In this document: piece by piece, positions 4,623 to 63,332 of the stretch
How the letters are laid out: each line of letters begins with the position of its first letter
Numbering within the stretch: the stretch's first letter is position 1
Source: the human T2T-CHM13v2.0 reference genome, Homo sapiens
Strand: one strand, 5' to 3'
NCBI RefSeq assembly: GCF_009914755.1
Contig: NC_060929.1
DNA: 64,000 bases
Program-made: the position numbers and the translations under genes
The notes under the pieces: model-generated
Told to the model about the DNA's origin: nothing
The model's database searches: none
What the model saw: only the letters and a program-made list of their open reading frames with translations

Positions 4623-5066
<444 letters not shown>

Positions 5067-14480: not shown

Positions 14481-14572
14481 TTCGTCAACTTCACATGGAA
14501 TTCTTGAGAGCAGGATCAAATGTCATGCAGACTTTTACCTTTTCTGCCAGTGAGGACAATATGGAAAGCAAG
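14481..14572 (+). CDS. BHMT2: BHMT2 exon 3
   Basis: (V)[30 protein letters not shown]; AG/GTAAAC; 92 nt, 27 nt shorter than BHMT exon 3. Confidence 0.95.
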
Positions 14573-17920: not shown

Positions 17921-18068
17921 TATTTTGAGCACGTTGAAGAAGCTGTGTGGGCTGTGGAAGTCTTAAAAGAATCAGATAGACCCGTGGCAGTTACCATGTG
18001 CATAGGCCCAGAGGGAGACATGCATGATATAACCCCCGGAGAATGTGCTGTGAGGCTGGTGAAGGCAG
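17921..18068 (+). CDS. BHMT2: BHMT2 exon 5
   Basis: [49 protein letters not shown]; AG/GTAATT; 148 nt. Confidence 0.96.
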
Positions 18069-18739: not shown

Positions 18740-18968
18740 GACTGGAGTCCAGAGTTGCCACCAGATGGGATATTCAAAAATACGCCAGAGAGGCCTACAA
18801 CCTGGGGGTCAGGTACATTGGCGGGTGCTGTGGATTTGAGCCCTACCACATCAGGGCAATTGCAGAGGAGCTGGCCCCAGAAAGGGGCTTTTTGCCACCA
18901 GCTTCAGAAAAACACGGCAGCTGGGGAAGTGGTTTGGACATGCACACCAAACCCTGGATTAGAGCAAG
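18740..18968 (+). CDS. BHMT2: BHMT2 exon 7 (GGCC zinc-ligand motif)
   Basis: [45 protein letters not shown]...KPWIRA; AG/GTAAG; 229 nt. Confidence 0.96.
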
Positions 18969-19125
18969 GTAAGCATTTTTAAATTAACATTCTTATTATT
19001 TTCCTTTAATCTCATTTTATTTATTGTTGTAAATGTCATGCATGCACATGACAAAAAGTATAGAAATGTATAAAGTGAAAAGTAAAAATTATCCCCTTCC
19101 TGATACCAGCTCCATTCCCAAAATT

Positions 19126-46040: not shown

Positions 46041-46884
46041 TAATGTTTTTATTATTTTAAAATCAATGTATTCTCATTATAAAAATATTTTGGAAAATAC
46101 AGTGAAACATGAAGAATAAAATAAAACAAGCCTTAATTCCGCCATCAATAGGTAACTACTGTTAACATCTCTATTCCCTCCAGTTCTTCTAATGTCTATG
46201 TTTTTATATCGTTTTCATGCTGAATTTTGAAGTCTTCAAAGTACATTTCTGCTTCCATTTATAAATGTTAAAAGTCTGTCCTTGTTAAATATTACAAACA
46301 TATTCTTATTAGAAACTACTGTGTTATTAGAAACTGCAAGGCATGTTTGGGTATAGGGGTAGAAGGTCATTTTGAACATACCCGCCAATTCAGGGTTAGT
46401 ATTGGACTCCTCTACTAAAGCCGCATTTGTGTCCCGTTATACTGGATGTATATCACACAGGAGATCACACTCCAGGCTGAAGATCTTCCAGGACTTCATC
46501 CCCTGATTCCATAATCTTGACGCCTTGGCCTTTGACAAATATCTGAGCATCGAATGGACTTCTCAGAGGCCTCTCTGGCAGCCTAAGTGGGCCATGGTGC
46601 ATGATCCCAGGTGAGCGAGAGGACGGTCAGGGTCGGGGCAAAAGTGCAAGAGGCAAAAGGGACGCTAGGCAGGTTTGAAATCTGAGCGAGTGGCAACCTC
46701 GCTTTTTCTTATCTTACTTTTCGGTGGTTCCACCCATTTGGGTGAACAATCTGGATTACCTCCTTGGCAGGCCAGGTTCCCAACAGGAGGCGGGCCTGAT
46801 GAAGGGCTGGTGGGCGTGTTCCCGCCCAAGGTCCGTGTTGGCCCGCGCGGTGGCTGGGAGGCCCTCCCCACGCCCAACTGCGGG

Positions 46885-46890
46885 TATAAA
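46885..46890 (+). promoter_or_regulatory. BHMT TATA box
   Basis: gggTATAAAgagg in GC-rich context ~105 nt upstream of the expected start codon. Confidence 0.75.
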
Positions 46891-46990
46891 GAGGCAGGCT
46901 GCGGACTCGGAGCAGCTCGGGGCTGCGCAGCGGGAAGGCTCGCCTAGTCGGTCCGCATCCGTGTCGACCACCTGTCTGGACACCACGAAG

Positions 46991-47023
46991 ATTCCACCCG
47001 TTGGGGGCAAAAAGGCCAAGAAG
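46991..47023 (+). CDS. BHMT: BHMT (betaine-homocysteine S-methyltransferase 1) exon 1; first codon is ATT, not ATG
   Basis: ATT-CCA-CCC-GTT-GGG-GGC-AAA-AAG-GCC-AAG-AAG = (I/M)PPVGGKKAKK, donor GTGAGT at 47024. 33 nt, same as BHMT2 exon 1. Confidence 0.92.
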
Positions 47024-54363: not shown

Positions 54364-54482
54364 TTCGCCAGCTTCATCGAGAGTTCCTCAGAGCTGGCTC
54401 AAACGTCATGCAGACCTTCACCTTCTATGCGAGTGAAGACAAGCTGGAGAACAGGGGCAACTATGTCTTAGAGAAGATATCT
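54364..54482 (+). CDS. BHMT: BHMT exon 3
   Basis: (V)[39 protein letters not shown]; AG/GTGAGT; 119 nt. Confidence 0.96.
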
Positions 54483-56322: not shown

Positions 56323-56470
56323 TATTTTGAACACGTTGAAGAAGCTGTGTGGGCAGTTGAAACCTTGATAGCATCCGGTAAACCTGTGGCAGCAACCATG
56401 TGCATTGGCCCAGAAGGAGATTTGCATGGCGTGCCCCCCGGCGAGTGTGCAGTGCGCCTGGTGAAAGCAG
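56323..56470 (+). CDS. BHMT: BHMT exon 5
   Basis: [49 protein letters not shown]; AG/GTGATG; 148 nt. Confidence 0.96.
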
Positions 56471-61139: not shown

Positions 61140-61322
61140 GAGCATCCATCATTGGTGTGAACTGCCACTTTGACCCCACCATTAGTTTAAAAACAGTGAA
61201 GCTCATGAAGGAGGGCTTGGAGGCTGCCCAACTGAAAGCTCACCTGATGAGCCAGCCCTTGGCTTACCACACTCCTGACTGCAACAAGCAGGGATTCATC
61301 GATCTCCCAGAATTCCCATTTG
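61140..61322 (+). CDS. BHMT: BHMT exon 6 (Cys217 zinc ligand; carries Gln239)
   Basis: [61 protein letters not shown]; AG/GTAAG; 183 nt. Confidence 0.96.
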
Positions 61323-62848: not shown

Positions 62849-63077
62849 GACTGGAACCCAGAGTTGCCACCAGATGGGATATTCAAAAATACGCCAGAGA
62901 GGCCTACAACCTGGGGGTCAGGTACATTGGCGGGTGCTGTGGATTTGAGCCCTACCACATCAGGGCAATTGCAGAGGAGCTGGCCCCAGAAAGGGGCTTT
63001 TTGCCACCAGCTTCAGAAAAACATGGCAGCTGGGGAAGTGGTTTGGACATGCACACCAAACCCTGGGTTAGAGCAAG
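62849..63077 (+). CDS. BHMT: BHMT exon 7 (GGCC zinc ligands); exon 8 outside window
   Basis: [45 protein letters not shown]...KPWVRA; AG/GTAAG; 229 nt. Confidence 0.96.
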
Positions 63078-63332
63078 GTAAGCATCTTTTTACTAACCCA
63101 AACTAATTTAGATTATGAATATGTTCAAGTGAGGCCATTTAGAAGACTGCAGCAAATTTGTTGTGTGATGATGAAGAATCAGTCATCCCCAAATTCTCTC
63201 CCAGAGATGTTTACAAAGCATCCTTATTAGGTGATTTCTGGAGATTGTTTTAAGAATATAGAACGTATTTGACCTGATTTTGGATTTTGAAAAGAAAAAG
63301 AAAAATTTTTTTAAAAATTGTTTTTAAATATA

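What the first reader, a model, noticed from the sequence alone, without database searches (positions are those of the whole stretch)
18740..18968. Exon 7 of BHMT2 and BHMT is nearly identical: exon-restricted gene conversion
Seen (hand count): 18740-18968 vs 62849-63077 differ at only 4 of 229 nt (2 synonymous), with a perfect 166-nt run (18749-18914), and identity continues into the donor (gtaagcat). Exon 2 differs at 36 of 133 nt (~73% identity), many at third codon positions. Protein-level selection cannot explain identical synonymous sites, so recent or recurrent interlocus conversion is inferred. The exon carries the GGCC zinc ligands and part of the oligomerisation region. Practical effects: short-read mis-mapping, cross-reacting siRNAs and probes. 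I do not know whether this is already published.
Basis: partly seen in the sequence, partly recalled or inferred. Interest (0 to 1): 0.7.

Follow-up and report, generated by a model that had tools for sequence, protein, structure and literature searches.

The report
Gene conversion of one BHMT exon
Two ancient neighbouring human genes for homocysteine-clearing enzymes, BHMT and BHMT2, share one exon that is 98% identical while their other exons are only 67-80% alike, most likely because that exon has been copied between the genes more than once, which would confuse probes, peptides and selection tests aimed at either gene.

Summary
Observation confirmed. Exon 7 of BHMT2 (18740-18968) and BHMT (62849-63077) differs at 4 of 229 nt, with a 166-nt identical run. 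Synonymous divergence is 0.04 against 0.61 for the seven other exons pooled; 0 of 29 four-fold sites differ against 43 of 92. The duplication predates living mammals (Ganu 2015), so this is not a young copy. Protein constraint does not explain it: exon 2 of BHMT is about as conserved (43 of 44 residues to 1umy) yet has paralogue pS 0.68. Published ape alignments show orangutan with Ala in both paralogues where human, chimp, gorilla and 1umy have Gly (residue 334/325), and human-orangutan orthologues differing at 3 and 4 exon-7 residues, against ultraconservation. Ganu's own tests found breakpoints at alignment positions 794 and 822, near the start of exon 7 (CDS 809), and dismissed them. Best reading: recurrent interlocus gene conversion confined to exon 7 (0.72; any conversion about 0.93). 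No non-human nucleotide sequence was available, so the decisive exon tree is not run. GC3 is not raised. No earlier report found in my searches. New member of a known kind.

The parts
18740..18968 (+). BHMT2 exon 7 (codons 261-337), homogenised copy
   Evidence: annotation row
62849..63077 (+). BHMT exon 7 (codons 270-346, CDS 809-1037), homogenised copy 44,109 bp downstream, same orientation
18749..18914 (+). 166-nt run identical to 62858-63023
62858..63023 (+). 166-nt run identical to 18749-18914
18747..18748 (+). two adjacent gene-specific differences (silent Glu; Ser264 vs Pro273), likely 5' edge of the tract; Ser/Pro is gene-specific in 4 of 4 apes
18826..18831 (+). Cys-Cys codons (Cys290/291 of BHMT2; Cys299/300 of BHMT at 62935-62940); zinc-ligand role is recalled
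   Evidence: sequence
18915..18915 (+). only internal silent difference; CpG in BHMT2, TpG in BHMT (63024)
18931..18933 (+). Gly325 codon (Gly334 of BHMT at 63040-63042); Ala in both orangutan paralogues
18958..18958 (+). Ile334 (BHMT2) vs Val343 (BHMT, 63067); Val in both orangutan paralogues, Ile in 1umy
18969..18988 (+). eroded similarity tail in intron 7, 16 of 20 matches to 63078-63097
63078..63097 (+). matching intron-7 tail of BHMT

Best explanation
Exon 7 of BHMT and BHMT2 is nearly identical even at silent sites, most likely because short tracts of genomic DNA have been copied between the two tandem genes by gene conversion more than once, long after the duplication. Shown: a 229-nt island of near-identity between unalignable introns, in genes 44 kb apart. 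Inferred mechanism: a break repaired from the paralogue needs a stretch of near-perfect match; exon 7 is the longest coding exon and strongly constrained in protein, so it stayed similar enough to keep converting, each event resetting its silent sites, while the other exons fell below that threshold. Converted alleles are tolerated because this segment (last barrel strands, zinc cysteine pair, first half of the dimerization arm) does the same job in both enzymes, whereas betaine versus S-methylmethionine specificity lies further 5'. Selection to keep BHMT-BHMT2 heteromers compatible may add to this and is untested. The last homogenisation on the human line is roughly 10-20 My old (95% range about 0.3-73 My, assumed rate); orangutan likely had its own later event over residues 334-343.
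For: pS 0.04 vs 0.61; four-fold 0/29 vs 43/92. Permutation 0 of 100,000. Duplication at the base of mammals, both genes in tandem in monotreme, marsupial and placentals (PMC4516251). Two copies only in the genome. Orangutan Ala334/Ala325 and Val343/Val334 in both paralogues, against Gly in 3 of 3 African apes and in 1umy. Ganu Table 1 lists Asn290Asp and Asn290Lys each in both BHMT and BHMT2. GARD breakpoint 822 (p 0.0004) and single-breakpoint 794 lie near the exon 7 start. Exon 2 control: 43/44 residues to 1umy but paralogue pS 0.68. Intron-7 tail points to a genomic template. BHMT-BHMT2 binding seen by yeast two-hybrid and AP-MS (PMC6010280).
Against: No non-human nucleotide sequence was examined. 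The species-sorted evidence is one clear site; coincidence probability 0.02-0.30 by assumption, and it rests on one orangutan record per gene. Orangutan paralogues differ at 4 residues in the 5' third of the exon, no closer than orthologues. GC3 of exon 7 (0.59/0.56) sits inside the range of the others (0.41-0.72). Ganu's authors inspected segment trees and attributed the breakpoints to fast rodent rates; BIC did not support recombination; their alignment coordinates cannot be mapped exactly. Table 1 does not say whether the paired Asn290 changes are in the same species. The rest of the dimerization arm, in exon 8, is not homogenised (7 of 26 residues differ, pS 0.69), which weakens the heteromer motive.
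Confidence: 0.72

Rival explanations
1. A single conversion event in a primate ancestor overwrote exon 7 once; the orangutan sharing is coincidence or a record error, and other mammals show ordinary divergence.
For: Human silent divergence fits one event 10-20 My ago with a wide range; orangutan paralogues differ at 4 residues; coincidence up to 0.30.
Against: A one-off tract between exons about 73% alike, ending at both exon edges, is hard to start without prior near-identity (inference); a breakpoint shows in a 38-species alignment; paired Asn290 changes.
Confidence: 0.18
2. No exchange: both copies are held at the nucleotide level by an overlapping function (RNA structure, splicing or regulatory element).
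For: Exon 7 is 74 of 75 residues identical between human BHMT and 1umy; similarity ends close to the exon edges.
Against: Human and orangutan orthologues differ at 3 (BHMT) and 4 (BHMT2) exon-7 residues, 3 of 6 and 4 of 14 of all their differences, more than the 2 between human paralogues. Folding z-score -0.45. No Rfam match over the exon; 1 chance hit at E 0.57 upstream. No RefSeq element annotated there.
Confidence: 0.05
3. Conversion templated by a spliced mRNA or cDNA copy, which would explain an exon-bounded tract.
For: Similarity stops at the acceptor (4 of 16 upstream).
Against: Similarity runs about 20 nt into intron 7; no processed copy of exon 7 in the genome; differences sit at exon positions 8-9.
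Confidence: 0.04
4. Assembly collapse or mis-polishing in this genome made the two exons look alike.
For: None direct.
Against: Independent human, chimp and gorilla protein records carry the same exon-7 residues in both genes; three PDB sequences match BHMT exon 7 at 75 of 75; flanks are unique.
Confidence: 0.01

Closest known systems
Long-lived concerted evolution in mammalian gene pairs DDX19A/B, TUBG1/2, BMP8A/B (Carson and Scherer 2009, PMC2720389; abstract, background, parts 1, 3, 4 of 7 read)
   Same: Ancient two-copy tandem pair, close together, mosaic pattern with one homogenised segment and divergent remainder; binding-site co-evolution proposed as motive.
   Different: Those tracts span at least two exons and the intron between (a filter of that screen, which would have excluded this case); here one 229-nt exon with a 20-nt tail, no GC3 rise, and two enzymes with different substrates.
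CCR2/CCR5, TLR1/TLR6, EMR2/CD97 mosaic conversion (as summarised in PMC2720389; originals not read)
   Same: Partial conversion between functionally diverged paralogues whose products interact or share partners.
   Different: Receptors, multi-species evidence published; here a metabolic enzyme pair with nucleotide evidence from human only.
Ganu et al. 2015 evolutionary analysis of BHMT/BHMT2 (PMC4516251; parts 1-5 of 6 and six PDF supplements read, S1 Text not readable)
   Same: Same genes; found significant breakpoints at 470, 794/822 and paired substitutions at residue 290.
   Different: Concluded there was no recombination and did not single out exon 7; called sites 290 and 330, both in exon 7, borderline positively selected.

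Membership tests
Long-term segmental gene conversion between ancient mammalian paralogues | Duplication predates the mammalian radiation | tested here: met
   Other exons pS 0.61; published phylogeny
Long-term segmental gene conversion between ancient mammalian paralogues | Two copies, close in cis | tested here: met
   2 matches in the genome, 44,109 bp apart; copy number in other species not checked
Long-term segmental gene conversion between ancient mammalian paralogues | Significant run of silent-site identity (mosaic pattern) | tested here: met
   own permutation test, not GENECONV itself
Long-term segmental gene conversion between ancient mammalian paralogues | Paralogues cluster by species in the tract | tested here: inconclusive
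   Protein level, 4 apes only: holds for residues 294-346, not for 270-293 in orangutan
Long-term segmental gene conversion between ancient mammalian paralogues | Seen at nucleotide level in several distant lineages | not testable with these tools
   No non-human mammalian DNA held; indirect only
Carson-Scherer screen class | Over 97% identity across two exons and the intervening intron | tested here: not met
   Introns unalignable apart from a 20-nt tail; a screen filter, not a requirement of conversion
Carson-Scherer screen class | Raised GC3 in the tract | tested here: not met
   0.59/0.56 vs 0.41-0.72
Ultraconserved or synonymous-constraint element | Near-zero divergence between orthologues | tested here: not met
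   3 and 4 amino-acid changes human vs orangutan in exon 7; silent sites not seen
Structured RNA element | Folding stability above shuffles or Rfam match | tested here: not met
   z -0.45, 59 of 200 shuffles as good

The most novel reading that the evidence does not exclude
A single 229-nt exon between unalignable introns has stayed under gene conversion in many mammalian lineages since the duplication before monotremes split, and selection favours it because it keeps the zinc site and dimer arm of BHMT2 matched to BHMT so the two enzymes co-assemble: a minimal, self-sustaining conversion island that intron-requiring screens miss as a class.
Probability: 0.3. Interest if true: 0.75.

Novelty: new member of a known kind. 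Interest (0 to 1): 0.55.

Why it matters
It would reverse the 'no recombination' reading of the one dedicated evolutionary study and cast doubt on its borderline selection calls at residues 290 and 330. It suggests that single-exon conversion islands between old paralogues are undercounted, since the screen read here required a homogenised intron. Practically, the copies share 168 exact 21-mers, 67 100-mers and 17 150-mers, and 8 of 10 tryptic fragments of the exon (four of 8-14 residues), so siRNAs, probes, single-end RNA reads and peptides from exon 7 cannot tell the genes apart; mass-spectrometry evidence for BHMT2, including its binding to BHMT, needs unique peptides.

Tried and rejected
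RNA structure or known RNA family: negative. Extra or processed copies: none, 2 matches. Wider duplication: outside exons 2-7 the inspected BLAST matches between the two gene regions were many-to-many, repeat-like hits. PRDM9-type 13-mer motif (recalled): 0 sites within about 1 kb of either exon. GC-biased conversion signal: absent. Ebbert 2019 camouflaged-gene supplements (PMC6526621): no BHMT in 12 of 42 files searched, 30 not searched. Carson and Scherer supplements: no BHMT in 5 files. Not held: Li 2008, Ganu 2011, Szegedi 2008, Ezawa 2006, Pajares 2006. A set of mammalian BHMT/BHMT2 protein homologues was not obtained, so clustering beyond apes is open. Earlier scan findings were not available. 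One search returned nothing on BHMT2.

Full report
Observation. The two exons align without gaps and differ at 4 of 229 positions: two silent (18747, 18915) and two replacements (Ser/Pro at 18748, Ile/Val at 18958). The 166-nt identical run is as described; no other exon has a run above 23. The other coding exons are 67-80% identical. BHMT exon 8 begins 4.5 kb past the window; I fetched it and it is diverged like the rest (23 of 79). The genome holds just these two copies of exon 7.

Silent sites. Proportion of synonymous differences is 0.040 in exon 7 (2 in 49.5 sites) against 0.36-0.86 in the others, pooled 0.61. Four-fold sites differ at 0 of 29 against 43 of 92 (p 3e-7). Among 266 same-amino-acid degenerate codons the longest identical run is 53; none of 100,000 shuffles exceeded 36. 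The only internal silent difference is a CpG transition. At an assumed 1e-9 per site per year this gives 10-20 My since homogenisation, with 95% limits of about 0.3-73 My, far younger than a duplication placed before monotremes, marsupials and placentals split (PMC4516251).

Boundaries. Upstream of the acceptor the introns share 4 of 16 positions, chance level. Two gene-specific differences sit at exon positions 8-9. Downstream, 10 of 14 positions beyond the donor consensus match (p 8e-4; other donors 1-7 of 14), then similarity is lost. A tail into the intron fits a genomic donor and older tracts now eroding (inference).

Is protein constraint enough? BHMT exon 7 matches PDB 1umy at 74 of 75 residues (that 1umy is the rat enzyme is recalled, the call gives 407 residues and no organism). 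Exons 2, 4, 5 and 6 match at 43/44, 61/64, 44/49 and 51/60 (exons 1, 3, 8 not compared). Exon 2 is about as constrained, yet its paralogue pS is 0.68. Constraint may help exon 7 stay convertible but cannot fix its silent sites.

Is it nucleotide-level constraint? Supplementary alignments of Ganu 2015 show human and orangutan orthologues differing at 3 exon-7 residues in BHMT (291, 293, 334; 3 of 6 in the protein) and 4 in BHMT2 (266, 282, 325, 334; 4 of 14). The exon is thus not frozen between orthologues. It has no unusual folding (z -0.45) and no Rfam match.

Species-sorted sites. At BHMT 334 / BHMT2 325 orangutan has Ala in both genes; human, chimp and gorilla have Gly in both, as does 1umy. 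At 343/334 orangutan has Val in both, African apes Val and Ile, 1umy Ile. The simplest account is an orangutan-line tract covering both residues. Against over-reading: chance coincidence of one shared change is 0.02-0.30 depending on how many sites tolerate change; each orangutan gene is one database record; and orangutan paralogues differ at 4 residues in the 5' third, so that part has not been converted recently there. Ganu's Table 1 lists Asn290Asp and Asn290Lys each under 'BHMT&BHMT2', without naming lineages; site 142, outside exon 7, has one such entry too.

Published breakpoints. GARD gave 470 and 822 with significant incongruence; single-breakpoint analysis gave 794 under AIC and cAIC, none under BIC. 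Exon 7 starts at CDS 809, or 773 after their removal of 12 codons, plus an unknown number of insertion columns, so 794-822 is near its start though not exactly mappable. The authors ascribed the signal to fast small-mammal rates; I could not read S1 Text.

Mechanism. Shown: the island, its silent identity, its edges. Inferred: repeated non-allelic conversion between same-strand copies 44,109 bp apart, inside the roughly 55-kb range that PMC2720389 cites as favourable. Exon 7 is the longest coding exon; homology-length dependence of conversion is recalled knowledge. It codes the end of the barrel and residues 319-346 of the dimerization arm (319-370), while the betaine-specificity segment is residues 86-94, so swaps here should be near neutral. 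BHMT and BHMT2 bind in yeast two-hybrid (3 clones) and AP-MS (PMC6010280, passages), which offers a selective motive; but the rest of the arm and the hook lie in exon 8, which is diverged, BHMT2 is called monomeric in PMC4516251 and tetrameric in PMC11942099 (passages), and the AP-MS signal also appeared on the control column. I hold the motive as untested. GC3 shows no rise.

Prior knowledge. Searches for BHMT2 + gene conversion (1 paper), BHMT + gene conversion + paralog (0), BHMT + concerted evolution (0), BHMT + gene conversion (4) and BHMT2 + evolution terms (19 listed) found no report of this. Of the four I read passages of two (unrelated) and saw listings only for two homocystinuria reviews. 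The library lacks most subscription papers, including the 2000 cloning paper (seen only as a reference) and genome-wide conversion scans, so a prior mention is not excluded.

Verdict. Real feature. Conversion of some kind about 0.93; recurrent conversion 0.72. It works like DDX19A/B, TUBG1/2 and CCR2/CCR5; it fails the homogenised-intron and GC3 features of the Carson-Scherer class, and the multi-lineage nucleotide test is open. New member of a known kind, interest 0.55.

Noticed in passing
window 46991-46993: The annotated BHMT start codon reads ATT, not ATG, whereas the human and ape proteins begin with Met: a start-loss allele of this cell line or a base error. A search for CHM13 + BHMT + start found 0 papers.
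   Followed up: partly
window 46799-47023: An upstream ATG at 46799 is in frame and open for 64 codons into BHMT exon 1, starting 5' of a TATA-like box near 46885; it may be why the annotation lists an alternative exon 46771-47023.
   Followed up: partly
window 61229-61231 (BHMT codon 239): Gln here; PDB 8d45 and 1umy have Arg and all four apes have Arg. That this is a known common polymorphism is recalled.
   Followed up: no
window 17921-18068 and 56323-56470 (exon 5): Exon 5 is the next most alike (80% identity, pS 0.48, 23-nt run) and Ganu's other breakpoint, 470, falls near its start; possibly an older conversion. Not tested.
   Followed up: no
window 14481-14572 vs 54364-54482: BHMT2 exon 3 is 27 nt shorter at its 3' end, matching the nine-residue betaine-specificity segment described in PMC4516251.
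   Followed up: no
window 4724-4887: DMGDH (minus) and BHMT2 (plus) start codons lie head to head about 160 bp apart in a GC-rich stretch: a likely shared promoter for neighbouring steps of betaine metabolism.
   Followed up: no
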